Positions 22,562 to 63,505 are shown, counted from the stretch's first letter. The stretch: DNA of 64,000 nt from Candidatus Nomurabacteria bacterium (GCA_020632095.1 JACKGF010000001.1:70549-134548), one strand, 5' to 3'. Notes: generated by a model not told the origin, from the sequence alone. Numbers and translations are program-made.

Positions 22562-23716
22562 ATGTTCGCAATTCCAACAAATGTTGGCGTTACGCAACGA
22601 GTGGTCGCGACACTTGTTGCATGTGCATTGGTTCTATTCTCTGTCGGAGTTTATAACACAGCACAAGCAGCTAACCTCACTAATATTAGTGACACTTTAT
22701 CAAACTCTGATGTAAGTGTAGTGTCTGACCACACTATTAACTTTACGATACCGGCTGGATCAGCTGGTGTTGCAGCCGGGGGAGGAACTATCGTTGTGAC
22801 CTTCCCAGCAGGATTTAACATGGGATCAGTCGCCTTCGGTGATATCGATCTAAGTGTTAACTCAGTTGACCAAGCACTTTTAGCTGCTCCAGCTGGAGCA
22901 TCTTGGGGTGCAGTTGTAGCTGGCCAGGTTCTCACACTAACTTCAGGTTCAGCTGGTGCAGCAGCTACAGATCCAATTGTAATTAAGATCGGAACAAACG
23001 CAGCTGGTGGTGCAAACCAAATTACCAATCCAACTGCAGGGTCATACGAAATAGTAGTAACAGCGGGGGCAGATACGGGTCGCACACGCGTAGCAATCAT
23101 CGATAATGTGTTAGTAACAGCAATTGTTAACACTACCTTTGATTTTACAATCACAGGACTAGCTACCTCAACAGCTGTAAACGGAACCTCAACCACAGGT
23201 TCAACTACTGCTACAGAAATTCCTTTCGGAGTTCTGGTAGCTGGTGAAACCAAGACTCTAGCTCAACAATTAAACGTTACAACAAACGCAGCAAATGGTT
23301 ATGTTGTAACAGTTGAACAAGACGGTAATCTTCGTTCTTCAACAGGTGCTGATATTGATGGATTCATCGATGGAGCATACACCGACACTCCAACTGACTG
23401 GGACGCAAACCTACCTTCAAACTCACTACTTAATGAAAACACTTGGGGTCACTGGGGTATAACTTCAACTGACGGTAACTTGCAGGGAGGTGGTACAGCG
23501 TTTACTGCAGCTGACCAATACATCGCTGCTAGTACAACTCCACGAGTAATCATGGCTCACAACGACCCGTCTGATGGTACGACTGGAACCGCAGATGCAA
23601 CAGGTGACGATGTTGGTGAAACTTTCATTGGATATCAGATCCAGATCACACCACTTCAAGAGGCGGCTGATGACTATCAGACAACTCTAACCTACATCGC
23701 AACTCCTACTTTCTAA
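22562..23716 (+). CDS. secreted Ala/Gly/Thr-rich hypothetical surface protein. Its N-terminal domain is paralogous to that of 25418..27325.
   Basis: Signal peptide. The motif DTLSNSDVSVVSDHTINFTIPAGS...TFPAGF is shared with DTLSDSGPLEQANHTFDFVLN...ITPPAGF in the later gene. Confidence 0.5.
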   Translation: MFAIPTNVGVTQRVVATLVACALVLFSVGVYNTAQAANLTNISDTLSNSDVSVVSDHTINFTIPAGSAGVAAGGGTIVVTFPAGFNMGSVAFGDIDLSVNSVDQALLAAPAGASWGAVVAGQVLTLTSGSAGAAATDPIVIKIGTNAAGGANQITNPTAGSYEIVVTAGADTGRTRVAIIDNVLVTAIVNTTFDFTITGLATSTAVNGTSTTGSTTATEIPFGVLVAGETKTLAQQLNVTTNAANGYVVTVEQDGNLRSSTGADIDGFIDGAYTDTPTDWDANLPSNSLLNENTWGHWGITSTDGNLQGGGTAFTAADQYIAASTTPRVIMAHNDPSDGTTGTADATGDDVGETFIGYQIQITPLQEAADDYQTTLTYIATPTF

Positions 23717-23742
23717 TTTGAATTAATTGGATATGTAAACAT

Positions 23743-23772
23743 AAAAACCTCTCCTTGAGAGGTTTTTATGTT
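23743..23772 (+). terminator. rho-independent terminator
   Basis: Stem aaaaacctct / agaggttttt with loop ccttg and a T-run. Confidence 0.55.
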
Positions 23773-23857
23773 TTTACATATTTCTGTACATAACAAAGTA
23801 AATGTCTGGTTTTTAATGATAATATAGTTAAGTTAATTTAAATTTGAACGCTAAAAT

Positions 23858-24946
23858 ATGTTTCCAGTCTCGTTATCTATTTCAATCATAAAAATAGGAA
23901 GAATTACAGGTCTGACTTTTGTGGTTCTGCTACTATCTTTTTTTATCGTGGGCTTCGCAGAGGCTCAGGAGGCAGGTGTCAGTATTACACCCGCTACTAT
24001 TGAAGAGACTTTGGATCCTGGTGTTAGTAATGATTATAAACTAACAGTTGAAAATCTTGATAATAATCCGCAAAAGTTTTATTTGTTTACTCGTAACATT
24101 AGTGGAGTAAAAGAAGGAGGGGTTCCAATTTTTGCTAAAGATGACTTGGAAAAAACTGGCTACGAGTTGTCTGATTGGATAACTTTATCTGCTGCAGAGA
24201 TTGATATTCCTGGGCACGGGAAGGCTGGAGTGAGTTATACCATTAATGTACCTGAAAATGCTTCTCCTGGTAGTCACTTTGGAGGAGTTTTTATTTCGGT
24301 TGATCCACCAAAGATGGAAAGTAGTGGAGCGGCGGTTGGTTATCAGGTGGCAAACATTATTAGTATTCGGGTATCTGGTGAAGCGATTGAGAAAGCTAGT
24401 ATCAGACAATTCTCTACCTCTAAGTATCTATATGGTTCTCAAAATGTTGAATTTTCTGTTCGGATTGAAAATGCAGGAAACGTTTTAGTTAGACCGGCCG
24501 GTCCGCTTGAGGTGTTTAATATGCTTGGTAACGAAGTGGGGACTATACAGTTTAATGAGGGAAGAGCTGGAGTTTTTCCTAACGATACGCGTGAGTTTTC
24601 TGACATTAAATGGGAAGGTGATTCGGTTGGTTTTGGTAGATATGAAGCGGTGCTAAGTGCTAGTTATGGTGATAGTGGCGCTAAGAAGACCATGTCTAGC
24701 ACTGTTACGTTTTGGATTTTACCGATGAATATAATTGGTCCAGCTCTCGGTATCTTGGCATTTATCCTCCTTGTCGCGTTTGTTGTTGTTAGATTGTACA
24801 TAAGAAGATCACTGGCCCATTTGAATCAAGGTAGGAGAATGGTTCGTAGTCGCAAAAAAGGTTCGTCGGCTACTCTTCTGGTCGTGGTGGTAATGCTTAC
24901 TGTTACAGCCTTGTTCCTTATTGTGTTACTGGCATTGTTTGCGTAA
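23858..24946 (+). CDS. surface protein with N-terminal signal and C-terminal TM anchor plus basic tail; hypothetical
   Basis: Signal/TM, a beta-rich ectodomain, then a C-terminal TM followed by RLYIRRSLAHLNQGRRMVRSRKKG. The architecture resembles 61446..62399. Confidence 0.5.
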   Translation: MFPVSLSISIIKIGRITGLTFVVLLLSFFIVGFAEAQEAGVSITPATIEETLDPGVSNDYKLTVENLDNNPQKFYLFTRNISGVKEGGVPIFAKDDLEKTGYELSDWITLSAAEIDIPGHGKAGVSYTINVPENASPGSHFGGVFISVDPPKMESSGAAVGYQVANIISIRVSGEAIEKASIRQFSTSKYLYGSQNVEFSVRIENAGNVLVRPAGPLEVFNMLGNEVGTIQFNEGRAGVFPNDTREFSDIKWEGDSVGFGRYEAVLSASYGDSGAKKTMSSTVTFWILPMNIIGPALGILAFILLVAFVVVRLYIRRSLAHLNQGRRMVRSRKKGSSATLLVVVVMLTVTALFLIVLLALFA

Positions 24947-24957: not shown

Positions 24958-25374
24958 ATGGTGTTTGTTATGCAGTATTCCAACTATCATCGAGTTCTGA
25001 GAGTGTCTGCGGTTGTGGTGGCGGTTGTTCTGCTTTTTGAAAGCGGGTTAGTCAGTGACGCTACGGTGAGAATTTCACAAGACACACATTTATACTTAGC
25101 TAATGCTATCGGGATGACAGCCAAAGTTCAACCGACTGAACTTAATCAATTGACTGCCGCTCTGACAGCCAAAGAGAAAGAATTAGCGGCTCGTGAAGCA
25201 GCTTTGTCTGAGCGTGAGATTGCTGTGGATTTTTCCGGTGGTGCCGACGGTAATGAAAAAGCCACCTATCTACTGGCTAGTATTTTGTTTATTTTATTAG
25301 TTTTAATATTGCTCAATTACGTTCTTGATTATATAAGAATTCGTGATGAACGGACTGAGGTAAAAACTGTGTAA
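24958..25374 (+). CDS. small membrane protein with coiled-coil segment; hypothetical
   Basis: N-terminal TM, an AKEKELAAREAALSEREIA segment, and a C-terminal TM. Confidence 0.4.
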   Translation: MVFVMQYSNYHRVLRVSAVVVAVVLLFESGLVSDATVRISQDTHLYLANAIGMTAKVQPTELNQLTAALTAKEKELAAREAALSEREIAVDFSGGADGNEKATYLLASILFILLVLILLNYVLDYIRIRDERTEVKTV

Positions 25375-25417
25375 TGCTCTAAATATTTAGTTGTCGACTA
25401 AGGTACAATGTATAGAC

Positions 25418-27325
25418 ATGAAAGCGGTGTACGAAAAATGGACACTTTGGCTAGTGATTTTCTTCTTTGTAATAGTTGGAGTCTTTGTGTTTTCTCCACA
25501 GGTTACTAATGCTCTCAAGATCAATGAGTACAAAGACACTCTTAGTGACTCAGGTCCGCTTGAGCAAGCTAACCATACTTTTGACTTTGTTTTAAATACT
25601 GATGTATCACCAGGTGGAATTTTTGAAATTACTCCGCCAGCCGGTTTTACTGTTCTTTCGACTACTACTTTCGCTGAAAGAAACGTTGAACTCTTGGTTA
25701 ATGGGTCGGCTCGAACCGCGGGTACTGTAGCTGCACCAGGAGTAGATCAGGTAGAAATTACGGCTGGTTCACCGGGATTTTTTAGATACACACTGGCTCC
25801 GGATTCCGGGTTAACATCGGGCAGTCGTCTTAAGTTTAAAATCGGAAATCATACCTCAAATTCAGTAATGTCATCAGTCACCTTTAGTACATCTACTGGG
25901 ACCACTACTAATCCAGGAGATGTTGAACCGATAGTAAATTCGGGCATAACAGGCAAGCATGATGTTAAATTGGAAGTTTATGACGGTGGTTTAGTAGCAA
26001 ATGCTAACTTCGTGATTTTTTTAAATGAGAAGGTTAGTGTACCAAATATTGACACTACTGAGGAAATTCCACCTTTTCGCTTTGGCGGTTCGCCGACCAG
26101 TTCGGTGGGAGGAACTACTCTTTTTGTGGAGATCGGTTTAGAAACTGATGAGTTTGCGATCTGTAAATATAGTACAGTTGCCGATATTCCTTTTGGGTCT
26201 ATGTCAGATACTTTTTCTAACACTGGTCTAGTTTTTCATACCACTGTTGTACAGGTAGTTCCAAATTCATTAGCGCAGTTTTATGTTAGATGTATTGACG
26301 ATGAAGGAAATTTCAATATTGACGATTACTTAATTGCGTTTACCGTTAATGATATACCGACTGGAACGTCGAATACTGATGGTAATGTGGACGGAGATGG
26401 CACAGGTACTGGAAATGATGGTACTGGCTCAGGTGGTGGCGGTGGCGGGACGAGCGGTTCTTCTGATGGAGAAGCTCCAACTGAAGGTGGTACTAGTGGC
26501 GGTGGCGGATCAGGAGGTGGAGGAGGAGGTGGTTCAGGTGGTGGCTCTGGATCAACGGCTGGGGGCGGTTTCGAAAGTACAAGTGCACCCTATAGAAGTG
26601 GTGATGGTAGAGTAATTATTTCTGGATATGCCTATCCAAATAGCACAGTCAGTATTTTGGTTGATGGAAATTTCTTTGATACCACGAAAGCAAGTAATTT
26701 AGGTGTATACTCAATTACTTTAGATGAAATTGCTCGCGGAGTTTATACTTTTGGGGTTTATGCCCAAGGTTCTAACAATATAAAATCATCAACTTTTAGT
26801 ACCTCCTTTACTGTAACAGGTGCAAGAACTTCTGCTCTTGGTAATATCAACGTCTCTCCATCAATTCTGGTGGCTCCAAATCCTGTTCAACCAGGAGAGG
26901 TACTTACTGTATCCGGTTTTTCTTTACCAAATGCAAAAGTGACAATTCAAAATGGACGTCTAAAATCCAGTGTAGCAAATAAAGAATATGAGGTTCAGTC
27001 AGACAGCCAAGGTCGCTGGTCTACTACGATTGATACCACAGGCTTTACGGTGGATACATATCAAGTTAGAGCTAAGGCCGAACAGGAGGGTGGAGCAGTG
27101 ACTCATTATTCTGACTATACTTTTTACGGAGTGGGTCAGAAGGCAGATTTACCAATTAATACTGATTTGAATCGAGATGGTAAGGTTAATCTAATCGACT
27201 TCTCAATTATGCTTTTCTGGTGGAACACAAATGGTGGAGATTCAGATCCACCAGCAGATATTAACCGGGACGGGAAGGTGAGTTTGACGGATTTTTCTAT
27301 ACTTCTTTTCAATTGGACTGGGTAG
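25418..27325 (+). CDS. secreted protein with Gly-rich linker, Ig-like domains and a C-terminal dockerin-like double repeat. The ORF track starts at TTG 25391.
   Basis: Signal anchor. Poly-Gly/Ser linker, then C-terminal DLNRDGKVNLIDFSIMLF...DINRDGKVSLTDFSILLFNWTG (two DxNxDGxVNxxD repeats of the dockerin type). Confidence 0.6.
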   Translation: MKAVYEKWTLWLVIFFFVIVGVFVFSPQVTNALKINEYKDTLSDSGPLEQANHTFDFVLNTDVSPGGIFEITPPAGFTVLSTTTFAERNVELLVNGSARTAGTVAAPGVDQVEITAGSPGFFRYTLAPDSGLTSGSRLKFKIGNHTSNSVMSSVTFSTSTGTTTNPGDVEPIVNSGITGKHDVKLEVYDGGLVANANFVIFLNEKVSVPNIDTTEEIPPFRFGGSPTSSVGGTTLFVEIGLETDEFAICKYSTVADIPFGSMSDTFSNTGLVFHTTVVQVVPNSLAQFYVRCIDDEGNFNIDDYLIAFTVNDIPTGTSNTDGNVDGDGTGTGNDGTGSGGGGGGTSGSSDGEAPTEGGTSGGGGSGGGGGGGSGGGSGSTAGGGFESTSAPYRSGDGRVIISGYAYPNSTVSILVDGNFFDTTKASNLGVYSITLDEIARGVYTFGVYAQGSNNIKSSTFSTSFTVTGARTSALGNINVSPSILVAPNPVQPGEVLTVSGFSLPNAKVTIQNGRLKSSVANKEYEVQSDSQGRWSTTIDTTGFTVDTYQVRAKAEQEGGAVTHYSDYTFYGVGQKADLPINTDLNRDGKVNLIDFSIMLFWWNTNGGDSDPPADINRDGKVSLTDFSILLFNWTG

Positions 27326-27500
27326 GGTATACAGCTTGGCTTATGCGATTCGGGTTTACGTTCCAGCAGAATTAAGTAAGCAAAGGGAGGGAGTGAGTTT
27401 GACGGATTTTTCTATACTTCTTTTCAATTGGACTGGGTAGGGTATACAGCTTGGCTTATGCGTTCGGGTTTACGTTCCAGCGAATTAAGTAAGCAAAGGA
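27281..27500 (+). repeat. tandem duplication (2 copies of ~113 bp) spanning the stop codon of 25418..27325
   Basis: The unit gagtttgacggatttttctatacttcttttcaattggactgggtagggtatacagcttggcttatgcg(a)ttcgggtttacgttccagc(a)gaattaagtaagcaaagg occurs at 27281-27388 and again at 27395-27500. Confidence 0.8.
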
Positions 27501-27627
27501 ACGTAGTGACTATTGCGAACTTATGTCAGAATTTGCTCTGCCCTTGGGCAAATTCTGACTGCTCTAGGCAAAGCAAATCTCGGCAGCTTGCTACATGCTT
27601 TTTTCTCCTTTGGAAGTCTAAAAATCT
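27426..27627 (+). repeat. ~200-bp repeat, near-identical to 63615..63815
   Basis: Both copies read aattggactgggtagggtatacagcttggcttatgcgttcgggtttacgttccagcgaattaagtaagcaaaggaacgtagtgactattgcgaac...ctcctttggaagtctaaaaatc. They differ by a single T indel. Confidence 0.85.
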
Positions 27628-27793
27628 GCTACAAGTTATGCTACTCGTATTTTTAAATTTCACTACGTCCTGAAAAGCTTGGCTTATAAGTTCACTTTGC
27701 ATAGTAAAAATTAGTCGTAGTTATGCTACTCGTATTTTTAAACAAAGCAAATCTCAAACTAAATTCACAATAGTCACTACGTTCCTTTGTTCA
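27490..27793. mobile_element. MITE-like non-coding element (~304 bp) bounded by ~26-bp terminal inverted repeats
   Basis: Left end caaaggaacgtagtgactattgcgaa (27494-27519). Right end ttcacaatagtcactacgttcctttg (27764-27789) is its reverse complement at 25/26 positions. The interior has no ORF, a 10-bp hairpin, and an internal direct repeat ttatgctactcgtatttttaaa. Confidence 0.4.
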
Positions 27794-28270
27794 TTTATCA
27801 AATTGGACTGGGTAGGGTATACAGTTTGGCTTATGCGTTGGAGTTTACGTTCCTTGGCTTATACGTTCCTTTGTTCGGGTTTACGCTTATGCGTTCGGGT
27901 TTACGTTCCAGCGAATTAAGTAAGCAAAGGAACGTAGTGGTCAGAATTTGCTCAAGGCAGAGCAAATTCTGACATACAAAATTATAGTCATTACATTCCT
28001 TAATTTTTGCAACTATTGCGAACTTGTATCAGAATTTGTTGCTGAGAAATAATGCCTGAAGAGATTGTGTTTACGTTGTAAAAACTCATCTAAAATTAGT
28101 ACTGTTAACTATACTAATTTTTAACCAGTAATTTAGAGTTGGTTTGTTTTTGTGTGAGATAGAGGATTTTGCGATTTAGTCTAGGTAAACAAGAATAATG
28201 AGATTGAGTAATTTTTGTATACAAGTAGTCGCTTGCGTTTGGTTTACGTTCTTGTGATTTGCTTAGATGG
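27794..28270. repeat. degenerate, rearranged copies of the same intergenic repeat family
   Basis: Repeated motifs gcgttcgggtttacgttcc, gcgttggagtttacgttcc and gcgtttggtttacgttctt; hairpin gtcagaatttgctc/gagcaaattctgac at 27936-27975; partial TIR at 28009-28024. Confidence 0.6.
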
Positions 28271-28322
28271 GGCTGTGGGTAAGCTTGAAAATATTTAGTA
28301 TTCACTTGTATAATGTATTGGT

Positions 28323-30445: not shown

Positions 30446-30659
30446 AAAAACAATATACCAATTCAACTCAGCCTTCCTGTCGATACTTCCTTAGGGTGGT
30501 CAAAATTTGCCCAAAGACAGAGTAAATCCTGATAGTTGTCCTGTGTATTTCTGGGATTCAACTATTAGTTAATAGCGGGTATAATTTAGGTATTGCAAAG
30601 AATAAAAATTGTGGCGAATAATAAAAATAGCCCTGTTTTTGACTAATAAATGAGGATAA

Positions 30660-56076: not shown

Positions 56077-56078
56077 GG

Positions 56079-56535: not shown

Positions 56536-57858
56536 ATGGCGAAACCTCTCATTGTTTGTCGTGATCTATCGATTATTTATAATCAAGGTAAATCAAACGA
56601 ATTTAAAGCCCTGCAGGGGGTAAATACAGATATTTTTGAAGGTGAATACATCATTCTTTTTGGTGCATCAGGTTCTGGTAAGTCAACTTTGATGTATTCA
56701 ATTCAAGGCTCTCTGCCACCTGGAGAGGGGACTCTGCTTATTAAGGGTGACGATATTTATTCTTACCCACCGTCCGAACGAGTCTACTTTCAGCGTTATG
56801 TTATGGGTATTATCTTTCAGTCTTTCAACCTGATTGGTTCACTATCAGTGCTTGATAATGTGGCTCTACCAATGATTTTTTGTGATGCTGACCGTACAAC
56901 GCGCGAAAGACGTGCACAGTCTTTGCTCGATAGGTTTGGGGTAGGTCACGTGTCACATAAGATTCCGGCTATGCTTTCTGGAGGTCAGCAACAACGTGTG
57001 TCAGTGGCTCGTTCGATGGTTAATGACCCTAAGATTTTATTGGCTGACGAACCGACCGGAAACCTCGACTCAGTTTCAACCCAACAGGTGATGGATAAAA
57101 TTGACGAAATTAACACCTTTGATCGACGGACTATTATTATGGTGTCACACAATGCTGCTCACTTGAGCTATGCACATCGCGTTTATTACTTGAAAGATGG
57201 CTTTATTGTACGTGAAGTGGTTAATCCACAGCGTAAACAAATTAAACCAGTTAAGGAAGGGGAGACGATTGTAACTGAATTAGAGCAATTAGCTCGCTTG
57301 TTTCCGTATGACTCAGTTGAGACTCTGCGGGTTAAGAGTTTAGTTAATTATCTAACTCAAGATTTCAGTTTCGATCAGATTATTCGTCTTGAACGAGCGA
57401 CGGGAATGTTTATTCAAGGGAAGGTTGATAGAGATGCTTATATTAAAAGTCTGGTTCTACCACTTGAAAGGGGTGGGGTGGAGGTTGATACGAAAGAAGC
57501 AAGGCGAATGGCTAGTGTGACAGAAAGTTTGATAAATAACGCTGACGATATTAGACGTTATCGAGCCAGAAAGGACAACAATAGTATTTTCTTTAGTCAG
57601 CATAAATTGGCCGAGCGTATCAGTGAACACTTGTCTCAAAAATATAATATCAAGCTAAATAAAGAGCAGAACACAAATATTACAGAATTAATCGCTGATA
57701 GAGTAACTGGTGTGATTGAGGATGACGATCTTAACCAACGTTTAATGAAAGGAGTTAAATCTGGTGGTCTCGGACTGAGTGAGAAAGAAGCTGATGATAT
57801 TACTAGGTATTTTGAGAAGGTTATTGCTCAAGGGGTTGATGTTAGTTATAAGAATTAG
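56536..57858 (+). CDS. ABC transporter ATP-binding protein (MacB/LolD/FtsE-like) with a ~210-aa C-terminal extension
   Basis: Walker A GASGSGKST, signature LSGGQQQRVSVARS, Walker B ILLADEPTGNLD, H-loop VSHN. The domain ends near residue 225 and is followed by an uncharacterised charged, helical extension. Confidence 0.85.
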   Translation: MAKPLIVCRDLSIIYNQGKSNEFKALQGVNTDIFEGEYIILFGASGSGKSTLMYSIQGSLPPGEGTLLIKGDDIYSYPPSERVYFQRYVMGIIFQSFNLIGSLSVLDNVALPMIFCDADRTTRERRAQSLLDRFGVGHVSHKIPAMLSGGQQQRVSVARSMVNDPKILLADEPTGNLDSVSTQQVMDKIDEINTFDRRTIIMVSHNAAHLSYAHRVYYLKDGFIVREVVNPQRKQIKPVKEGETIVTELEQLARLFPYDSVETLRVKSLVNYLTQDFSFDQIIRLERATGMFIQGKVDRDAYIKSLVLPLERGGVEVDTKEARRMASVTESLINNADDIRRYRARKDNNSIFFSQHKLAERISEHLSQKYNIKLNKEQNTNITELIADRVTGVIEDDDLNQRLMKGVKSGGLGLSEKEADDITRYFEKVIAQGVDVSYKN

Positions 57859-58140: not shown

Positions 58141-59355
58141 ATGCGAATACAAGATTTAGCACAATTATCAACTCGAATGTTTAAGACCAATCCGTTGCGT
58201 ACTTGGTTGACGATTTTAGGTATGGGGGTTGGTACGGGAGCGGTGGTGGTTTTGGTGGGGCTTGGTTTTGGCTTGCAGCAGATTATTTTGGAGCAGATTG
58301 TGTTTGGAGAAACTTTGCTTTCGCTCGGGGTTTCTTCTACCGGAGCGCAAGGACTAAGTCTTACTCCTGAGACGGTTGTAGAGTTTGAGAAAAATCCGGC
58401 TGTTCTTGACGCTGCACCATTAGCGCGTTTTCCAGCTCTTATAACTTACAAAGGCCTAACTGGTAATGTATTTGTGCAAGGCGTTGAGCCACCATACCTG
58501 CGCTACGCTGGTGTAACAGCGACTGAGGGAACTGTGTTTGAAGAAGCTGATGCCGGTGATACCAACTCAATTATGATTTCTCCAGCTACGCTAAAGCTGT
58601 TTGGTATTGCTGATGAAGATGTAAAAGCTTTTATTGGCCAAAAAGTTACACTAAAACTACTAGTTCCAGCTGATGATGGGACCGACAATGTAAACGAAAT
58701 TGTTATTGACAAAGAATATATCGTGCGCGGTGTTACTAAAGAGCAGGGAGTATTGAATGTCATGATGATGTTGCCAGAACTAAGAAATTACGTCGGAATA
58801 GAAGAATATGAAAGGATTCAAGTAAGAGTAGATTCAAATCAAAATCTGCCAATTGTGGAAGCAAAGTTAATTGAAGATGGTTATCGGGTAACCGCTTTGT
58901 CAAAGACAGTAGAACAAGCTTCAAAAATTTTCCAGGGAATTCAAGTGGTTTTGGCTACTTTTGGTGGAATTGCTTTGATTGTATCGGCGATTGGTATGTT
59001 TAATACCATGACAGTGACCTTGCTCGAACGCACCAAAGAGATTGGAATCATGCGTACCATTGGGGCGTCTCCCAACGACGTAAAGTACTTGTTTGTGTCT
59101 GAATCAGTCGTGGTGGGCTTTCTGGGGGGTGTGACCGGTATTTTAATGGGTGTTGTGCTCGGATTGTCTGTAAACTTATTACTCAACATTGTGGCCGGTC
59201 AATTTGGAGGGCAGTCTGTGAAGTTATTTTCGTTTCCGTTTAATTTTCTGGCTTTCATCACAATCTTCTCGGCCGCGGTTGGCTATTTGACTGGTATTTT
59301 CCCAGCCAGACGCGCCTCTACACTTAATCCTCTCGATGCGATTAGGTACGAGTAG
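58141..59355 (+). CDS. ABC transporter permease, FtsX/MacB family (N-terminal TM, large extracytoplasmic domain, C-terminal 3-TM FtsX domain)
   Basis: N-terminal helix LRTWLTILGMGVGTGAVVVLVGLGFG. The C-terminal FtsX signature ERTKEIGIMRTIGASPNDV is followed by three TM segments. Confidence 0.8.
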   Translation: MRIQDLAQLSTRMFKTNPLRTWLTILGMGVGTGAVVVLVGLGFGLQQIILEQIVFGETLLSLGVSSTGAQGLSLTPETVVEFEKNPAVLDAAPLARFPALITYKGLTGNVFVQGVEPPYLRYAGVTATEGTVFEEADAGDTNSIMISPATLKLFGIADEDVKAFIGQKVTLKLLVPADDGTDNVNEIVIDKEYIVRGVTKEQGVLNVMMMLPELRNYVGIEEYERIQVRVDSNQNLPIVEAKLIEDGYRVTALSKTVEQASKIFQGIQVVLATFGGIALIVSAIGMFNTMTVTLLERTKEIGIMRTIGASPNDVKYLFVSESVVVGFLGGVTGILMGVVLGLSVNLLLNIVAGQFGGQSVKLFSFPFNFLAFITIFSAAVGYLTGIFPARRASTLNPLDAIRYE

Positions 59356-59470: not shown

Positions 59471-61354
59471 ATGTCGTTCAATCACCAAGAGTTTCCTAAG
59501 TACATGCGTACAGCCGGAAAAATTACCGTAGTCACAGCCCTTACAGGTTTACTTGTTTTTGTTTTAGCATTTATTTTTGATGTTGGAACAAAGGAATTAA
59601 GTAAAGTTTCGGCGGCCGGGAATGCGACAACTACCCTGACCGTACTCAACACACCACCGGAATTTACCTTAAGCCCATATGAGGTCATAGGTTCAGCAAC
59701 TACGACTCCAACTAACTCTGGTGATACCATTTCATGGTCTGCGATTGGTAGTGATAGTAATGGGGCGCCATACTTCCTGCTAGTTTGTAGTACCAACGCA
59801 ACTCCGACTGCTAACCAAGCACCAGACGCCGGTAGTCTTGGAACGGTTCCTCCAAATTGCTATAGCTCTCCAACAACAACCCAGTGGGGAGTTTCTACTG
59901 GTACAGTTTCAGGGGCTTTAGCAACAGTATCGACAACGACTACTGAATCCGCACCATTCAATGAAGTAAATAACTGGTACGCTTGGGTGTGTGATGATGA
60001 TCCTGTCTTGCCTCGATGTAATGCTGTTCCTGAACAAGGTCTATACTCAACTAGTTCATCCCCATTTCACGTTAATAAGCGGCCAGTACTAACTGATTTC
60101 TACAACAACGGTCCGGTTGACCCAGGTGATACACTAACGTTTTATTCTACTTCTTCCGACCCAGACACTAACTATGACAACGGCATCACTTTAATTGTTT
60201 GTGGATCAAATTCATATAGTACAACTACTAATACATGTACAGCTGATTTCTTGGCTTCGTCTTCAATTCCTTTCACTGATGATGCTTATGCAACAGTTAC
60301 GATACCAGCTATTATGATCGATCAATCTTATAGTGCCTTTGGCTTCCTGGTTGATGAGTTCGGGCATGAAGCTGCTGCAAACCCAATTTCAGATCCATTT
60401 GATGTCAATAACGTTGCGCCGGTAGTTTCTGGTGGTGACATCAAGCTCAATGCTGGAGTTGACATGACTTTGACTCAACCTGGAACTGAGACAACTGGCT
60501 TTACACTTGATTTCAAAGTTAAGGACGCTAATAGTTGTTTGAACTCCGCCTCGTCTAGTGAAATAGTTGACTTTGATGTAGTTGTCTTCAGAGGAGCTGT
60601 TGGCACATCAACTTGTGATGGTACAGCAGGTTCGTATGATCCAAATGATTGTTATCCAAATGGACTAGCGACTACAACTTGGAATCTTACCTGTTCTGCT
60701 ACAACTACCTGTCTAAGTCCTTACCAAGATGAGATCGATTATGCTTGTACATTCCCATTGTGGTTCTTGGCTGATCCAACAGATTCATTGCCAGGACAGG
60801 TACCAGCTTTCTTAGATGCTGATATGTGGAGTGCTGGTGTAGCTGGAATTGATGACGATGGTCTAACTGGCTTTATGGCCACCACCTCAAGCCCAGTCGA
60901 AGTAATTAGTTTTAAGTCAATTGATATTCTGGCTAACGAAATTTCCTATGGAGCTATTGAACCTGGAAATGACACTGGTACCCTAAGCGCTACATCAACT
61001 CTATTGAATATTGGTAATGTAGGTCTTGACCAGCAAGCCCAAGGGGAATCAATGTGTGGAACTTTTTCAGTCGGAAATGAGTGTCCAGTGTCTGCTACCT
61101 CAACGATTCCTGAATCTGAACAAAAATTCTCATCGACTAGTTTGTCATATGCAAGTGGGCTAGCGGTGACTCTTTCTTCAACGACTGCAAACGAAGTTGA
61201 GCTCAATGTTAAGAAGACAGTTTCCACCTCAACACCAAAACAAGGTATTACTTATTGGGGTATAGCCGTTCCTGCCTCGATTACTTTGTCTGGAAGCTAC
61301 ACAGGAATGAACACGTTTACTGCGGTTACTGCTGAAGAGGCAGACTGGTACTAG
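59471..61354 (+). CDS. membrane-anchored secreted protein. Its C-terminal ~150 aa are homologous to the C-terminus of the giant protein.
   Basis: N-terminal TM anchor and a T/S-rich, Cys-containing ectodomain. The C-terminus ...EQKFSSTSLSYASG...ITYWGIAVPASITLSGSYTGMNTFTAVTAEEADWY aligns with the giant protein's ...EQLFSTSTFDYVSC...IYWGIEVPFGTASNPHSGVNTFTAISD. Confidence 0.55.
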   Translation: MSFNHQEFPKYMRTAGKITVVTALTGLLVFVLAFIFDVGTKELSKVSAAGNATTTLTVLNTPPEFTLSPYEVIGSATTTPTNSGDTISWSAIGSDSNGAPYFLLVCSTNATPTANQAPDAGSLGTVPPNCYSSPTTTQWGVSTGTVSGALATVSTTTTESAPFNEVNNWYAWVCDDDPVLPRCNAVPEQGLYSTSSSPFHVNKRPVLTDFYNNGPVDPGDTLTFYSTSSDPDTNYDNGITLIVCGSNSYSTTTNTCTADFLASSSIPFTDDAYATVTIPAIMIDQSYSAFGFLVDEFGHEAAANPISDPFDVNNVAPVVSGGDIKLNAGVDMTLTQPGTETTGFTLDFKVKDANSCLNSASSSEIVDFDVVVFRGAVGTSTCDGTAGSYDPNDCYPNGLATTTWNLTCSATTTCLSPYQDEIDYACTFPLWFLADPTDSLPGQVPAFLDADMWSAGVAGIDDDGLTGFMATTSSPVEVISFKSIDILANEISYGAIEPGNDTGTLSATSTLLNIGNVGLDQQAQGESMCGTFSVGNECPVSATSTIPESEQKFSSTSLSYASGLAVTLSSTTANEVELNVKKTVSTSTPKQGITYWGIAVPASITLSGSYTGMNTFTAVTAEEADWY

Positions 61355-61411: not shown

Positions 61412-61445
61412 AGGGAATTTTTTTCGATAATAAGAGAACTTGTCC

Positions 61446-62399
61446 ATGAGATCTAACTTCCAAAAACTTTTGGTATTCAGCCTGTTGCTACCAGTGCTTT
61501 TTTTGAGTACGGGAGCATCAGAAGTATTTGCTGGATTTGGTATTACACCGCCTTATGTTAAGAATACAAGTCTGACGCGCAACTCTACATATGAGCAACA
61601 AATCCTTTTGGTAAGAGGGGAGACAAACATTGCGCAAAAGGCTGAAATTATTGTTGATGCTCCTGAAATCGCAGATTGGATTGAAGTGGTTGAAGGAGAC
61701 GAAATTAAGATGCCAAAAGGGGTTCAGAAAGTACCGATGACAGTTAGGGTTAAAGTGCCGAGTAATGCTGAGTTTAAAGACTACACAGGTTCGATTCGTA
61801 TTCGTACTTTACCTGATGATGATCAAGTGGCGGCAGGTGCGGTTAGCATCTCGCTCGGAGCTTTGGTTGATATTAGGTTATCAGTTATTGATAAAAAAAT
61901 TAAAGATTTTAGAGTAAGAAGAATCTCAGCTCCAGATTTAAATGCCGGACACAAATTACTTTGGATGTTTTTCCCTGGTAAAATTCGATTTGATATGTTG
62001 ATTGAAAATACTGGTAATGTAGACATTTCACCGTCTAAAGTTGAATTCAGAATTTTTGACCGAGCGGGAAAGGTACTGTTAGAAGAAACCAAGAATCTAG
62101 GAAAAATTAAAGAAATAGCTCCCTATGCTACAGAAAGTGTTGTGGCTGAATTACCAACCCGCCTGCCTGCTAATGGTTACATAGCGAGATACAAGATCTA
62201 TAACGGAGATGATATAAAGCAGGAAGGCGATTTAAGTCTTAATATTTTGCCGTACGGCACTCTTCAGCTGGCAGGATTTGGATTCTTTGGACTCTCAATT
62301 GCACACAAGATTTCAATATTACTCCCAGTATTTGCCTTAATGATTGCAGGTTTATACGTATGGCATGCCCGTCGAAAAAAGAAACTGGAGATTGTATAA
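61446..62399 (+). CDS. surface protein with signal peptide and C-terminal TM anchor plus basic tail; hypothetical. The ORF track starts at TTG 61440.
   Basis: Signal MRSNFQKLLVFSLLLPVLFLSTGASEVFA, a beta-rich ectodomain, and a C-terminal TM ILLPVFALMIAGLYVWHARRKKK. Similar architecture to 23858..24946. Confidence 0.5.
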   Translation: MRSNFQKLLVFSLLLPVLFLSTGASEVFAGFGITPPYVKNTSLTRNSTYEQQILLVRGETNIAQKAEIIVDAPEIADWIEVVEGDEIKMPKGVQKVPMTVRVKVPSNAEFKDYTGSIRIRTLPDDDQVAAGAVSISLGALVDIRLSVIDKKIKDFRVRRISAPDLNAGHKLLWMFFPGKIRFDMLIENTGNVDISPSKVEFRIFDRAGKVLLEETKNLGKIKEIAPYATESVVAELPTRLPANGYIARYKIYNGDDIKQEGDLSLNILPYGTLQLAGFGFFGLSIAHKISILLPVFALMIAGLYVWHARRKKKLEIV

Positions 62400-62401
62400 C
62401 T

Positions 62402-63505
62402 ATGCGTTATTTTGCATTTTCAATCCTCTGGATTTTAACCATAGGTTCACCACTTGTTGTAACTGCAGATTTCTCAGCCTCAACAACATTGACGCTAAGT
62501 ATCTGTGGAAACATGGTTGTTGATCCGGGAGAGCAGTGTGATGTAGTTGGTGAAACTGGGGTTTATAGTCAAACAATCGCAGGGAGACAGTGTACTCCGC
62601 AATGTAATTATGGTCCTTATTGTGGAGACGGTATTTTGCAAACAGCTCATTCTGAAGAATGTGATGATGGCAACAATGACAATGGCGACTTCTGTTCAGC
62701 TATTTGTAAAATTGAACCAGCTGGTTCTGGTGGAGGTGGCTCATCTGGAGGTAATTCGTCTGGTGGTGGAGGAAGTTCAGTAAAGCTTAACAATACACAA
62801 ATTAATGTGGTTGGTAGGGCTTATCCTTCAAGGACTATCAATTTCCTTAGAGATACTATTTCAATTGGCAATGTGCGTTCCGATAGTGATGGTAATTTTG
62901 AATTTTCGGCTGAATCATCACCTGGTACAGCTACACTTGGTATTTGGGCAACAGACAGTGCTAATAATCGTTCTATAACACTTAATAAAACTTTTGATGT
63001 GACACAAGGAGCGGTAACAAATATTAGGGGGATTGTTTTACCTCCGACCATCACTGTACCAAATCAGAAAGTTGATCCTGGTGCTCTAGTGGCTGTATCT
63101 GGACAAAGTGTTCCTAATAGTACGGTTGAACTTCATATTGATAATAGCTCATTGATTGAGAACACAACGTCAGGAGCCAATGGAAATTGGACAATAAATT
63201 TAGATACCAGCAAAATTTCGATTGCTGAGCATATTTTACGAGCTAGGACAATTGTCGGGACACCACCACTCACTGTACAAAGTAGCTTCAGTACCTCCTT
63301 GCAGTTATTTGTTGGGGTTGATGGAAAAGTGACCACGCCCTCAGATTTAAACCGTGATGGATCAATAAATCTAATTGACTTTTCAATCTTAATTTTCTGG
63401 TGGGGGACTGCTGGCGGTGACTCAAATCCGCCAGCTGATATTAATGCGAATGGTAAGGTAGGGTTGGAGGATTTTTCTATATTATTATTTAATTGGACTG
63501 GGTAG
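62402..63505 (+). CDS. secreted protein with Cys-rich repeat (CGDG...ECDDGN type), Gly/Ser linker, Ig-like domains and a C-terminal dockerin-like double repeat. The ORF track starts at 62360.
   Basis: Signal peptide. CGDGILQTAHSEECDDGNNDNGDFCSAIC matches the myxococcal-type cysteine-rich repeat pattern. The C-terminus DLNRDGSINLIDFSILIF...DINANGKVGLEDFSILLFNWTG is dockerin-like, and the C-terminal half is paralogous to 25418..27325. Confidence 0.6.
   Translation: MRYFAFSILWILTIGSPLVVTADFSASTTLTLSICGNMVVDPGEQCDVVGETGVYSQTIAGRQCTPQCNYGPYCGDGILQTAHSEECDDGNNDNGDFCSAICKIEPAGSGGGGSSGGNSSGGGGSSVKLNNTQINVVGRAYPSRTINFLRDTISIGNVRSDSDGNFEFSAESSPGTATLGIWATDSANNRSITLNKTFDVTQGAVTNIRGIVLPPTITVPNQKVDPGALVAVSGQSVPNSTVELHIDNSSLIENTTSGANGNWTINLDTSKISIAEHILRARTIVGTPPLTVQSSFSTSLQLFVGVDGKVTTPSDLNRDGSINLIDFSILIFWWGTAGGDSNPPADINANGKVGLEDFSILLFNWTG

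What the first reader, a model, noticed from the sequence alone, without database searches (positions are those of the whole stretch)
22562..63505. A 41-kb same-strand array of modular secreted or surface-protein genes that looks like one cell-surface attachment locus
Fourteen consecutive plus-strand genes encode proteins with a signal peptide or TM anchor. They comprise paralogous N-terminal-domain proteins (22562 and 25418), two dockerin-tailed Ig-like proteins (25418 and 62402), and two signal-plus-C-terminal-anchor proteins (23858 and 61446). They also include an Hsp20, a TM/coiled-coil protein, the 7799-aa DUF2341/LamG giant, an FN3 protein, a MacB/FtsX-type ABC pair and a protein sharing the giant's C-terminal domain.

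Domains recur in different combinations across genes, which is module shuffling, and genes are separated by the structured repeat units. This is the kind of repertoire used by small-genome episymbionts or surface-attached bacteria for host or substrate attachment. The dockerin-like tails imply that a cohesin-like partner exists somewhere.
Basis: inference. Interest (0 to 1): 0.65.

Follow-up and report, generated by a model that had tools for sequence, protein, structure and literature searches.

The report
Conserved Kaiserbacteria surface-fibre and giant-adhesin locus
This 41-kb stretch is a real, strongly conserved gene cluster of the ultra-small Candidatus Kaiserbacteria that appears to build a cell-surface fibre and display a 7,799-residue adhesin, and the "missing" cohesin partner of its dockerin proteins lies inside the cluster itself.

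Summary
There are 13 genes, not 14. Hsp20 and the ABC ATPase have no signal peptide or TM segment.

The window comes from a Ca. Kaiserbacteria MAG. Gene order is conserved in at least 14 species-level genomes. Its proteins, including the collinear giant, are as conserved as the housekeeping DinB. The locus is therefore not hypervariable and not actively shuffled.

New findings:
- **Cohesin partner.** The "TM/coiled-coil protein" (28814-30355) carries a genuine cohesin module, so the dockerins' partner is in the locus.
- **Pilin homologue.** The protein at 22562 belongs to a large CPR family. Its C-terminal domain is a sub-threshold homologue of the Pam pilin domain, a donor-strand pilus described in a 2026 preprint.
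- **Donor-only adaptor.** The dockerin protein at 25391 shares that pilin's N-terminal domain and linker, but carries a dockerin in place of the acceptor domain.
- **Membrane-anchored partners.** The proteins at 23858 and 61440 have DUF916/WxLIP-type architecture, the same as the membrane-anchored Pam chaperones.

Best reading (about 0.6): a Pam-like fibre and giant-adhesin display system tethered through cohesin-dockerin contacts. This is a new variant of known kinds. Assembly polarity, the chaperone role and the role of the MacB-type ABC transporter are inferred.

The parts
22562..23716 (+). Pam-type pilin homologue (384 aa). Layout: signal peptide aa 1-36, conserved N-terminal motif, Ig-like N-terminal domain (NTD) aa ~40-175, conserved linker aa ~176-200, C-terminal domain (CTD) aa ~201-384.
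   Evidence: NCBIfam NF058581 CPR_Pam_pilin_C matches aa 216-384 to profile positions 2-148 of 148 (E 0.0035, 17.4 bits, cut-off 55). Of 71 diverse family members, 52 hit the same model, best E 1.5e-10. The family has 2500 representative clusters. In the AF2 model the NTD has pLDDT 83-96 and the CTD is unresolved. Foldseek matches the NTD to Gram-positive pilin Ig domains and BslA. The linker, CTD and C-terminal strand are more conserved than the NTD body.
23858..24946 (+). WxLIP/DUF916-like protein no. 1 (362 aa): signal peptide, two beta domains, then two C-terminal TM segments.
   Evidence: Pfam WxLIP_PGBD scores 24 bits, below the gathering threshold (GA) of 27.3. All 17 orthologues hit it, best E 2.8e-8. 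TM segments lie at aa 292-310 and 340-358. The gene directly follows the pilin gene in all 14 genomes. P0358 from another lineage is an in-frame fusion of a WxLIP-like protein and a pilin.
24958..25374 (+). Small membrane protein (138 aa) with an N-terminal TM, a coiled coil and a C-terminal TM. Function unknown.
   Evidence: Hydrophobic segments at aa 13-31 and 105-123. No Pfam or NCBIfam hit. Syntenic in 14 genomes at 44-71% identity.
25391..27325 (+). Dockerin protein no. 1 (644 aa; alternative ATG at 25418). Layout: signal peptide, pilin-type NTD plus linker-like segment, FN3-like domain, Gly/Ser linker, two Ig-like domains, dockerin (aa 591-644, nt 27161-27322). It lacks the pilin CTD.
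   Evidence: Dockerin_1 scores 32.3 bits, above GA 22.9. The pilin-family profile matches aa 14-217 (E 5.9e-16). hhalign gives 98.8% probability and E 6.5e-17 through the linker. The C-terminal cassette is 38% identical to that of 62360.
27326..28322 (.). Repeat-filled intergenic region about 1 kb long. It is specific to this lineage and includes two extra copies of the last 24 nt of the dockerin gene together with the bases that follow its stop codon.
   Evidence: In relatives this gap is 60-230 nt. In CP060228 the same site holds a 1956-aa FG-GAP gene.
28323..28796 (+). Hsp20/alpha-crystallin (157 aa). Cytoplasmic, and always immediately upstream of the cohesin gene.
   Evidence: PF00011, E 2.8e-9. 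78-90% identical and syntenic in the 11 of the 14 genomes whose held stretch reaches it. A promoter-like site matching 11 of 12 positions lies at 28285-28314.
28814..30355 (+). Membrane-anchored cohesin protein (513 aa). Layout: signal peptide, cohesin (aa 42-154, nt 28937-29275), Pro/Thr linker, Ig-like domains, TM (aa 412-430), cytoplasmic coiled coil.
   Evidence: Pfam Cohesin scores 33.7 bits, above GA 24.1, and 37.2 bits for the module alone. A profile of 12 cohesin modules hits solved cohesins 1g1k (E 1e-3), 2vn5, 5g5d, 5m2o, 5aoz and NagJ. More than 100 homologue clusters are 68-84% identical, and most carry PF00963.
30734..54133 (+). Giant secreted protein (7,799 aa). It has an N-terminal signal or anchor, five repeats of a ~350-aa DUF2341/LamG-type module plus other repeat classes, and ends in a tandem beta-sandwich pair (aa 7546-7799, nt 53369-54130).
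   Evidence: Pfam finds five DUF2341 modules, one pentaxin/LamG and one Ig_Rha78A_N. Internal repeats are mapped. Orthologues of 7750-7795 aa are collinear at 36-73% identity. The C-terminus is paralogous to 59471.
54139..55728 (+). FN3-repeat protein (529 aa) with an N-terminal signal or anchor and no C-terminal TM.
   Evidence: fn3 and Pur_ac_phosph_N hits, E 1e-20 to 1e-22. The only hydrophobic segment is aa 22-40. 75% identical in L010.
55684..56440 (.). Tandem repeats of 148 and 83 nt that re-copy the 3' end of the FN3 gene (encoding FGWVKNISGGG*).
   Evidence: families D3, D5, D10. In L010 this gap is only 55 nt.
56536..57858 (+). ABC ATPase of the MacB/LolD/FtsE class (440 aa) with a ~210-aa C-terminal extension that has no annotation.
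   Evidence: ABC_tran E 3e-31. Best NCBIfam matches are DarD, LolD, FtsE and MacB, all below their cut-offs. 84% identical in L010.
58141..59355 (+). MacB-type (type VII ABC) permease (404 aa) with a MacB_PCD extracytoplasmic domain and a 4-TM FtsX domain.
   Evidence: PF12704 E 6e-18 and PF02687 E 4.5e-17. 88% identical in L010.
59471..61354 (+). 627-aa secreted or anchored protein. Its C-terminal half (aa 322-627, nt 60434-61351) is the same two-domain module that ends the giant.
   Evidence: BLASTP E 3e-17 against the giant. AF2 model has pLDDT 94.9 and pTM 0.87, all-beta, two domains. Top Foldseek PDB hit is the CfaB-CfaB pilin fusion (E 8.7e-5), with SafDAA, CfaE and FimH also listed, but TM-scores are only 0.2-0.34. 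About 800 homologues are 57-71% identical.
61440..62399 (+). WxLIP-like protein no. 2 (319 aa; ATG at 61446): signal peptide, two beta domains, one C-terminal TM.
   Evidence: Paralogue of 23858 (E 3e-8). TM at aa 287-305. It directly follows 59471 in L010-L012 as well.
62360..63505 (+). Dockerin protein no. 2 (probable start ATG 62402). Layout: signal peptide, Cys-rich DUF4215, Gly/Ser linker, two Ig-like domains, dockerin (nt 63341-63502).
   Evidence: Dockerin_1 25.9 bits (above GA 22.9), DUF4215 34.3 bits, Big_6 37 bits. The L010 orthologue aligns from aa 15 onwards.
63488..64000 (.). Intergenic repeats of the same family as those after dockerin gene no. 1. The segment 63607-63792 is 99% identical to 27418-27603.

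Best explanation
The region is the first ~41 kb of a larger, clade-wide envelope locus of Candidatus Kaiserbacteria (Patescibacteria/CPR). It encodes a surface-fibre and adhesin-display apparatus built from three known assembly principles.

**Shown by the tool results**
1. A secreted two-domain pilin (22562) whose C-terminal domain is a distant homologue of the Pam donor-strand pilin domain.
2. Two membrane-anchored DUF916/WxLIP-like proteins (23858, 61440). One sits directly after the pilin gene. The other sits directly after the gene that shares the giant's C-terminal module.
3. A genuine cohesin on a bitopic membrane protein (28814), and two canonical dockerins (25391, 62360).
4. A dockerin protein (25391) that has the pilin's N-terminal domain and linker but not its acceptor domain.
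5. A collinear, conserved 7,799-aa DUF2341/LamG giant and a 627-aa protein that end in the same tandem beta-sandwich module.
6. A MacB-type ABC pair.
7. Conserved synteny of all these genes.

**Inferred mechanism**
- All extracytoplasmic components are exported by Sec.
- The pilin polymerises by donor-strand exchange, assisted by the membrane-anchored WxLIP/PamC-like protein.
- The protein at 25391 can donate a strand but cannot accept one. It would cap the cell-proximal end of the fibre and tether it, Ca2+-dependently, through its dockerin to the membrane cohesin. Here it would replace the PamR anchor.
- The giant and the protein at 59471 are held or incorporated through their shared C-terminal module, with 61440 as the cognate partner. 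They would present LamG/DUF2341 lectin-like modules to a host or substrate surface.
- The MacB-type transporter supplies mechanical energy on the outer face of the membrane, for release or assembly of these proteins.
- Hsp20 may only be a syntenic passenger.
For: **Organism and conservation**
- P0121, from a Ca. Kaiserbacteria MAG, is 100% identical to part of the protein at 59471.
- The same cohesin protein is found in three metagenome assemblies.
- The order GH18-DinB-pilin-WxLIP-TM-dockerin-Hsp20-cohesin-giant is conserved in most of 14 species-representative genomes (a few lack one gene or end early; L023 is degenerate) and in CP060228.1, a 951,832-bp contig.
- The downstream order giant-FN3-ABC-FtsX-59471-WxLIP2-dockerin2 is conserved in three genomes.

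**Cohesin and dockerin**
- Both score above the Pfam cut-offs.
- The cohesin profile retrieves solved cohesins as its nine best PDB hits.
- 9 of 12 cohesin modules hit PF00963.
- Relatives encode three more cohesin proteins just beyond the window end, one of them combining a cohesin with a dockerin.

**Pilin**
- The only recurrent NCBIfam hit for the family is NF058581, in 52 of 71 members with best E 1.5e-10. In the protein at 22562 it covers the whole model at the C-terminus.
- The conservation pattern (linker, CTD and C-terminal strand more conserved than the NTD body) matches what the Pam preprint reports.
- The NTD is a confident Ig-like sandwich.
- In other CPR lineages the pilin module carries passenger domains at its N-terminus: LamG, LVIVD, Listeria-Bacteroides repeats and FN3.

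**Donor-only adaptor**
-.

**WxLIP-like proteins**
- Pfam evidence.
- The architecture equals that of PamC/PamD, which are chaperone-like with a C-terminal TM helix, and that of WxLIP, whose DUF916 strand is predicted to insert into its partner.
- P0358 is an in-frame fusion of a WxLIP-like protein and a pilin.

**Neighbourhood**
- A CorB/CNNM gene and a tail-fibre-like gene lie in the window. Both gene types are reported next to pam operons.
Against: - The Pam match is far below NCBIfam's cut-off (17.4 bits against 55). No family member is known to reach it.
- The pilin CTD could not be modelled (pLDDT about 30), so a truncated-Ig acceptor groove has not been shown.
There is no DUF3324 or PapD hit.
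- The giant/59471 C-terminal module shows no sequence link to the pilin CTD: hhalign gives probability below 1% and NCBIfam finds 0 of 55.
- The chaperone-usher-pilin Foldseek hits for that module (E 9e-5 to 5e-3, TM 0.2-0.34) are hardly better than generic tandem-Ig hits in a viral library (E 5e-4).
- No PamR-like protein (two FnIII domains plus a C-terminal TM) and no PamT-like protein was identified. The FN3 protein has no C-terminal TM.
- The promoter and terminator scans are at chance level, so co-transcription is not shown.
- The high conservation of the ABC pair (84-88%) and of Hsp20 (about 87%) would also fit housekeeping roles unrelated to the surface proteins.
Confidence: 0.6

Rival explanations
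1. A WxL-type, non-polymerising display system. The membrane-anchored WxLIP-like proteins (23858, 61440) simply hold monomeric secreted proteins (22562, 59471, the giant) on the cell surface by beta-strand complementation. Cohesin-dockerin contacts add further subunits. No filament is formed.
For: - DUF916 hits in all 17 orthologues.
- WxL clusters have the same logic: a small protein, a large protein with a shared C-terminal domain, and a WxLIP with a TM helix.
- Each WxLIP-like gene directly follows a candidate client gene.
- The AF2 model of the shared C-terminal module is complete and very confident as a monomer.
Against: - No WxL domain (PF13731) hit in 0 of 71 pilin-family members or in any locus protein.
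- DUF3324 was not detected.
- The only family-level link of the protein at 22562 is to a pilin experimentally shown to polymerise.
- The highly conserved linker is expected of a donor strand.
Confidence: 0.25
2. A structural cell-envelope coat (S-layer-like or wall-spanning scaffold) needed for envelope integrity or division rather than for attachment. The MacB-type pair would act like FtsEX or Lol, and Hsp20 would be a true housekeeping gene.
For: - Unusually high conservation for surface proteins: cohesin protein 62-81%, ABC pair 84-88%, Hsp20 about 87%, and a collinear giant.
- The locus is present in every related genome sampled.
- It makes up about 4% of a ~0.95-Mb genome.
Against: - No SLH, S-layer or peptidoglycan-binding domain in the locus proteins.
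- One related MAG (L023) has a degenerate locus with no giant and a truncated cohesin protein, so it may be dispensable.
- LamG, DUF2341 and FN3 content is typical of adhesins.
Confidence: 0.2
3. A cellulosome-like glycan-degrading complex, in which cohesin-dockerin contacts assemble enzymes on the cell surface.
For: - Cohesin and dockerin modules are present.
- A GH18 gene lies 2.3 kb upstream.
- LamG-type modules can act as carbohydrate-binding modules (reference cited).
Against: - Neither dockerin protein carries a catalytic domain or a known CBM.
- GH18 has no dockerin.
- No glycoside hydrolase domain was found in the giant.
Confidence: 0.05
4. A chance neighbourhood of unrelated secreted-protein genes that look like an array only because nearly all genes in this genome segment lie on one strand.
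For: - Strand bias runs across the whole window and GC skew is positive throughout.
- Promoter and terminator scans are uninformative.
Against: - Order is conserved across genomes whose DinB is only 47-58% identical.
- Four different modules are shared between locus genes.
- Complementary cohesin and dockerin modules lie in the same locus.
Confidence: 0.05

Closest known systems
Pam pilus system of CPR bacteria (PamA/PamB pilins, PamC/PamD membrane-anchored chaperones; Troman et al., bioRxiv 10.64898/2026.03.03.709456)
   Same: - A Sec-exported two-domain pilin with an N-terminal beta-sandwich, a conserved linker and a C-terminal domain. That domain gives the only recurrent family hit, NF058581.
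- Partner proteins with a signal peptide, two beta domains and a C-terminal TM helix, encoded next to the pilin.
- No usher and no outer membrane.
- CorB and a tail-fibre-like gene in the neighbourhood.
   Different: - The match is well below the family cut-off.
- The lineage is Kaiserbacteria (Paceibacteria). [quoted passage not shown]
- No PamR-type or PamT-type protein was found.
- Cohesin-dockerin modules, a 7,799-aa giant and a MacB-type ABC pair are part of this locus. The preprint mentions no cohesin, dockerin or ABC transporter.
WxL gene clusters of Firmicutes (small WxL protein, large WxL protein, WxLIP = DUF916+DUF3324+TM; PMC10599100)
   Same: - A DUF916-type domain followed by a second beta domain and a TM helix, in proteins of 319-362 aa (WxLIP proteins are 337-365 aa).
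- The cluster logic of a small secreted protein plus large proteins that share a C-terminal domain.
   Different: - No WxL domain and no DUF3324 were detected.
- The host is a CPR bacterium.
- The locus has extra cohesin-dockerin, giant and ABC components.
Cohesin-dockerin systems (cellulosomes, and the non-cellulosomal modules surveyed by Peer et al. 2009, PMC3035643, cited)
   Same: - Canonical duplicated Ca-loop/helix dockerins at C-termini.
- A cohesin on a cell-anchored 'scaffoldin-like' protein.
- In relatives, an adaptor protein with both a cohesin and a dockerin.
   Different: - No enzymes or CBMs on the dockerin proteins.
- The anchor is a TM helix plus a cytoplasmic coiled coil rather than SLH or sortase.
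- One dockerin protein carries a pilin N-terminal domain.
Giant DUF2341/FhaB/LamG surface proteins of Patescibacteria and giant ORFs of Omnitrophota (PMC11809585; PMC10066038)
   Same: - A very large secreted protein with DUF2341 and LamG-type modules in an ultra-small, reduced genome.
- A proposed adhesin role.
   Different: Those giants are described as poorly conserved or without full-length homologues. This one is collinear and 36-73% identical across species, and it sits in a fixed locus.
MacB-type (type VII) ABC transporters: MacB, LolCDE, FtsEX
   Same: ABC_tran ATPase plus a 4-TM FtsX permease with a MacB_PCD extracytoplasmic domain.
   Different: - No equivalog cut-off is reached for any named system.
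- The ATPase has a ~210-aa extra C-terminal region.
- The substrate or partner is unknown.

Membership tests
Pam pilus system (CPR) | The pilin C-terminal domain matches NF058581 CPR_Pam_pilin_C at or above its 55-bit cut-off. | tested here: not met
   The protein at 22562 scores 17.4 bits, E 0.0035, over the full model length. 52 of 71 family members match at E<=0.01, best E 1.5e-10. This indicates homology, but a sister subfamily rather than a curated member.
Pam pilus system (CPR) | The pilin has a signal peptide, a nine-strand beta-sandwich NTD, a linker donor strand and a truncated Ig-like CTD. | tested here: inconclusive
   The signal peptide and a confident Ig-like NTD are seen. The linker is highly conserved. 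The CTD model is unreliable at pLDDT about 30.
Pam pilus system (CPR) | PapD/FimC-like chaperones that carry a C-terminal TM helix and are encoded in the operon. | tested here: inconclusive
   The architecture is met for 23858 and 61440 and they are DUF916-like. No PDB hit by sequence.
Pam pilus system (CPR) | A PamR-type anchor (two FnIII domains plus a C-terminal TM) and a PamT-type tip (acceptor domain only). | tested here: not met
   The FN3 protein at 54139 has no C-terminal TM. No single-domain acceptor protein was identified. The giant/59471 C-terminal module shows no sequence link to the pilin CTD.
Pam pilus system (CPR) | Filament assembly by donor-strand exchange. | not testable with these tools
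   This needs multimer prediction, cryo-EM or biochemistry.
Cohesin-dockerin system | A dockerin with two duplicated Ca-binding loop-helix segments, scoring above the PF00404 cut-off. | tested here: met
   25391 scores 32.3 bits and 62360 scores 25.9 bits against a cut-off (GA) of 22.9. The sequences read DLNRDGKVNLIDFSIML...DINRDGKVSLTDFSILL.
Cohesin-dockerin system | A cohesin module scoring above the PF00963 cut-off and similar to solved cohesins. | tested here: met
   33.7 and 37.2 bits against a cut-off of 24.1. The nine best profile hits in the PDB are all cohesins, with 1g1k at E 1e-3.
Cohesin-dockerin system | Physical, Ca2+-dependent binding between the locus cohesin(s) and dockerin(s). 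| not testable with these tools
   Only co-location and co-conservation are shown.
Cellulosome | Dockerin-bearing catalytic subunits and a CBM-bearing scaffoldin. | tested here: not met
   No catalytic or CBM domain was found on any dockerin or cohesin protein.
WxL cluster (Firmicutes) | A WxLIP protein with DUF916, DUF3324 and a TM helix. | tested here: inconclusive
   DUF916 scores 24 bits in the window protein (below GA 27.3), but 17 of 17 orthologues hit it, best E 2.8e-8. DUF3324 was not detected. The TM helix is present.
WxL cluster (Firmicutes) | At least two WxL-domain proteins adjacent to the WxLIP gene. | tested here: not met
   No PF13731 hit in the locus proteins or in 71 pilin-family members.
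Chaperone-usher pili (Gram-negative) | An outer-membrane usher and a soluble periplasmic PapD-like chaperone. | tested here: not met
   No usher or PapD domain in any locus protein. The candidate chaperones are membrane-anchored.
MacB-type (type VII) ABC transporter | An ABC ATPase plus a permease with MacB_PCD and a 4-TM FtsX domain. | tested here: met
   PF00005 E 3e-31, PF12704 E 6e-18 and PF02687 E 4.5e-17. No named equivalog cut-off is reached.

The most novel reading that the evidence does not exclude
This would be a composite surface organelle not yet described. A donor-strand (Pam-type) fibre is tethered to the cell not by a sortase, an usher or a TM-anchored terminator, but by a donor-only pilin-dockerin adaptor plugged into a membrane cohesin. 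The fibre carries, or is accompanied by, a conserved 7,799-aa lectin-like giant that is held through a pilin-like C-terminal module by its own membrane-anchored chaperone or anchor. A MacB-type ABC mechanotransducer drives an extracytoplasmic assembly or release step. It would be the first case of cohesin-dockerin used as a pilus anchor, and a defined host-attachment machine for Kaiserbacteria.
Probability: 0.25. Interest if true: 0.85.

Novelty: new variant of a known kind. Interest (0 to 1): 0.62.

Why it matters
Kaiserbacteria and other Paceibacteria are abundant in groundwater and wastewater and have not been cultivated. How they contact hosts or surfaces is unknown.

This locus takes up about 4% of a ~0.95-Mb genome, and it is conserved as strongly as housekeeping genes. 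That marks it as central to the lifestyle of these bacteria.

The analysis yields a concrete, testable parts list:
- one pilin;
- two membrane-anchored partner proteins;
- a cohesin and two dockerins within the window, with more just beyond it in relatives;
- a giant adhesin;
- one ABC motor.

It would extend the newly described Pam pilus family to another CPR class. It also suggests a new use of cohesin-dockerin pairs as a pilus or adhesin anchor, and a way for a monoderm cell without sortase signals to retain a 7,799-residue protein.

Full report

The window carries 13 ORFs on the + strand between 22562 and 63505, not 14. A hydropathy scan finds an N-terminal hydrophobic segment and/or TM segments in 11 of them. 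Hsp20 (28323) and the ABC ATPase (56536) have none.

- Dockerin_1 scores above the Pfam cut-off in 25391 (32.3 bits) and 62360 (25.9 bits).
- HSP20, fn3, ABC_tran and MacB_PCD+FtsX are all found.
- The 7,799-aa protein has five DUF2341 modules and one pentaxin/LamG module.

The claimed paralogies are also real:
- 25391 and 62360 share a cassette of two Ig-like domains plus a dockerin (38% identity, E 4e-42).
- 23858 and 61440 are paralogues (E 3e-8).
- The giant's last ~250 residues match 59471 aa 322-620 (E 3e-17).
- The N-terminal relationship between 22562 and 25391 is invisible to BLASTP. It is clear with a family profile (E 5.9e-16) and with hhalign (98.8%, E 6.5e-17, extending through the linker).

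Two caveats apply. The same-strand arrangement is not special, because only one gene between 4.8 and 63.5 kb is on the - strand. The repeats fill only five of the twelve gaps.

**2. Organism and conservation**

A partial NCBI protein from a Candidatus Kaiserbacteria MAG is 100% identical to the protein at 59471. The cohesin protein occurs identically in three metagenome assemblies.

The order GH18-(NUDIX)-DinB-22562-23858-24958-25391-Hsp20-28814-giant recurs in 14 species-representative genomes labelled Kaiserbacteria, Nomurabacteria or Paceibacteria. It also recurs in CP060228.1, a 951,832-bp contig. The order giant-FN3-ABC-FtsX-59471-61440-62360 recurs in three long contigs.

Identities to the window proteins (unless noted):

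| Protein | Identity to window |
|---|---|
| Hsp20 | 78-90% |
| ABC pair | 84-88% |
| Cohesin protein | 62-81% |
| 23858 | 56-72% |
| 25391 | 53-72% |
| 22562 | 48-71% |
| DinB | 47-58% |

The giant is collinear with its 7,750-7,795-aa orthologues at 36-73% identity per 300-aa window.

The locus is therefore ancient, fixed in architecture and under purifying selection. The 'module shuffling / hypervariable' reading is not supported. One MAG (L023) has a degenerate version without the giant.

In relatives the locus continues past the window end. It adds a second pilin paralogue (46% identical), a 357-aa protein with a cohesin-like domain and a TM, a second cohesin/TM/coiled-coil protein (35% identical), a 247-aa protein with both a cohesin and a dockerin, and further large proteins.

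**3. The cohesin partner is in the locus**

- Pfam Cohesin scores 33.7 bits, above the gathering threshold (GA) of 24.1. The module alone scores 37.2 bits.
- A profile of 12 cohesin modules from this and related loci retrieves solved cohesins as its nine best PDB hits, with 1g1k at E 1e-3.
- Most of the 120 listed homologue clusters already carry PF00963.

The dockerins have the canonical duplicated 12-residue Ca loop plus helix.

**4. A Pam-type pilin**

The protein at 22562 has no Pfam hit. NCBIfam NF058581, 'CPR_Pam_pilin_C', aligns over its full length to aa 216-384 (E 0.0035, 17.4 bits, cut-off 55).

An exhaustive profile search shows a large family: 2,500 representative clusters at E<=1e-3. 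Of 71 diverse members, 52 hit NF058581 individually (best E 1.5e-10), and no other family recurs.

The Pam pilus was described in a 2026 preprint. PamA and PamB have an N-terminal beta-sandwich, a linker that is donated to the truncated Ig-like C-terminal domain of the neighbouring subunit, and membrane-anchored PapD-like chaperones (PamC and PamD).

Consistent with this:
- The N-terminal domain of 22562 is a confident Ig-like sandwich (pLDDT 83-96). Foldseek matches it to pilin Ig domains and BslA.
- The linker, C-terminal domain and last strand are more conserved than the body of the N-terminal domain.

The C-terminal domain itself was not resolved with the shallow alignment available. I therefore regard 22562 as a distant homologue in a sister subfamily, not a curated member.

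In other CPR lineages the same pilin module sits at the C-terminus of LamG, LVIVD, Listeria-Bacteroides-repeat or FN3 passenger domains. This is the architecture of two-domain pilus adhesins.

**5. WxLIP/PamC-like partners**

The proteins at 23858 and 61440 each have a signal peptide, two beta domains and one or two C-terminal TM segments. All 17 orthologues of 23858 hit Pfam WxLIP_PGBD (DUF916), best E 2.8e-8. The window protein itself scores just under the cut-off.

In Firmicutes, WxLIP (DUF916+DUF3324+TM) is predicted to insert a beta-hairpin into its WxL partner. PamC and PamD have the same signal/two-domain/TM layout.

Each of the two genes directly follows a candidate client gene: 22562 then 23858, and 59471 then 61440. 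One metagenomic ORF (P0358) fuses a WxLIP-like protein in frame to a pilin.

No WxL or DUF3324 domain was found.

**6. The giant and the protein at 59471**

The giant is built from five copies of a ~350-aa DUF2341/LamG-type module plus other repeat classes. Most of it has no annotation.

Its C-terminal module, modelled from 59471 aa 322-627, is a very confident pair of beta-sandwich domains (pLDDT 94.9, pTM 0.87).

The best PDB match is the donor-strand-complemented CfaB-CfaB pilin fusion (E 8.7e-5). SafDAA, CfaE and FimH also appear in the list. However, TM-scores are low, and a viral library yields generic tandem-Ig hits at E 5e-4. No sequence link to the pilin C-terminal domain exists. A pilin-like nature of this module is only a lead.

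**7. How it most likely works**

What is shown:
- the parts;
- their homologies and shared modules;
- their export and anchor signals;
- their conserved order.

What is inferred:
- After Sec export, the protein at 22562 polymerises by donor-strand exchange, assisted by membrane-anchored 23858.
- The protein at 25391 has the pilin N-terminal domain and linker but no acceptor domain. It would act as the cell-proximal, donor-only subunit.
- Its dockerin would bind the cohesin of 28814 and so tether the fibre to the membrane. This role is played by PamR in the published model.
- The protein at 62360 is a second cohesin client, with a Cys-rich head.
- The giant and 59471 are retained or incorporated through their common C-terminal module, with 61440 as partner. 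They would expose lectin-like modules.
- The MacB-type pair performs an ATP-driven extracytoplasmic step.
- Hsp20 may be a passenger. A promoter-like site lies just upstream of it.

My estimated probabilities:

| Claim | Probability |
|---|---|
| One linked surface system | about 0.85 |
| Genuine cohesin-dockerin pairing | about 0.85 |
| Pam-type pilin homology | about 0.65-0.7 |
| Chaperone or anchor role of the WxLIP-like proteins | about 0.5 |
| Full tethering model | about 0.25-0.3 |

**8. Rival explanations**

- A non-polymerising WxL-type display system (0.25).
- A structural envelope coat (0.2).
- A cellulosome-like degradative complex (0.05; no enzymes on the dockerin proteins).
- A chance neighbourhood (0.05; contradicted by the synteny).

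**9. Comparison with what is known, and novelty**

Each ingredient has precedent:
- Pam pili (2026 preprint).
- WxL/WxLIP clusters (PMC10599100).
- Non-cellulosomal cohesin-dockerin modules (Peer et al. 2009, cited).
- Giant DUF2341 proteins in Patescibacteria (PMC11809585).
- MacB-type ABC systems.

Three things are new:
- Their combination in one conserved locus in a lineage (Kaiserbacteria/Paceibacteria) that the Pam preprint never mentions. The preprint also contains no mention of cohesin, dockerin, an ABC transporter or WxL.
- The chimeric pilin-dockerin protein.
- The strong conservation of the giant, which contrasts with the poorly conserved giants described elsewhere.

No paper on this locus was found. 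I rate it a new variant of a known kind, with interest 0.62.

Noticed in passing
window 27311-28040, 30348-30459, 55684-56436, 58102-58142, 63491-64000: A family of short, partly palindromic intergenic repeats. The last 24 nt around the stop codon of both dockerin genes (AATTGGACTGGGTAG|GGTATACAG) occur three times at each of the two sites. The 3' end of the FN3 gene is copied four times. The segment 27418-27603 is 99% identical to 63607-63792. No Rfam family matches. Relatives have short gaps at these positions, so the repeats are recent insertions or duplications (MITE-like or gene-conversion tracts). One assembly (ERZ27248697 k141_296392) ends at about window position 63,350, just before the repeats that start at 63,488.
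   Followed up: partly
window 11400-16604: A 1,734-aa secreted protein with a C-terminal Peptidase_S74 intramolecular-chaperone domain (a phage tail-fibre / endosialidase type of domain). It has five or six internal 160-nt repeats encoding GNVGIGT motifs. The Pam preprint reports a tail-fibre-like gene as a constant neighbour of pam operons.
   Followed up: partly
window 657-1646: A CNNM/CorB-type Mg2+ transporter (CNNM + CBS). The Pam preprint lists the same gene type (corB) in the conserved pam neighbourhood.
   Followed up: no
window 4852-9411: A sigma-70-family (ECF-like) gene at 4852 is followed by a membrane protein that may be an anti-sigma factor (5451). Next comes a 983-aa secreted protein with SpaA-type prealbumin folds and a C-terminal PG_binding_1 domain (6460). 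This may be a separate regulated surface-protein unit.
   Followed up: no
window 10810-11253 and 20991-22247: A LexA-like S24 peptidase and a DinB/IMS translesion polymerase lie close upstream of the surface locus. Both are syntenic in relatives (L006, L008).
   Followed up: no
window 17295-20262: A DUF285 (BspA-like leucine-rich repeat) secreted protein and a GH18 chitinase-like protein lie upstream. GH18 is syntenic with the locus in most relatives and carries no dockerin.
   Followed up: no
L004 3538-9408 (CP060228.1): A 1,956-aa FG-GAP-repeat protein is inserted between the dockerin gene and Hsp20. This is exactly where the window has its 1-kb repeat block, so the site looks like an insertion hot spot.
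   Followed up: no
L023 8700-15500: A degenerate version of the locus in one Paceibacterota MAG. The pilin gene is reduced to a 135-aa ORF, the dockerin protein is nearly gone, and the cohesin protein is shortened to 379 aa. That gene is followed directly by the downstream pilin paralogue, and there is no giant. This could be a paralogue-mediated deletion or a misassembly.
   Followed up: partly
L010 14486-20278; L011 14334-19849; L012 14335-19589: Beyond the window end, relatives encode a second pilin paralogue, a 357-aa protein with a cohesin-like domain and a TM, a 588-aa second cohesin/TM/coiled-coil protein, a 228-aa TM protein and a 247-aa protein with both a cohesin and a dockerin (an adaptor-scaffoldin-like layout).
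   Followed up: partly
window 30005-30241 (28814 aa 398-476): The TM-plus-coiled-coil tail of the cohesin protein gives a weak hit to F0F1 ATP synthase subunit b' (E 5.6e-4, far below the cut-off). This probably reflects coiled-coil composition. It is noted because ATP synthase genes flank pam operons.
   Followed up: no
window 2578-3492 (- strand): A 304-aa ORF with no family hit lies in the only stretch of raised G+C in the window (0.48 against about 0.42).
   Followed up: no
P0358 (metagenomic protein, 666 aa): A single ORF joins a complete WxLIP-like protein (signal, DUF916 at 28.3 bits above GA, second domain, TM) to a complete pilin with its own signal-like segment. It is either a true fusion or a lost stop codon between adjacent genes. 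Either way it links the two families.
   Followed up: partly
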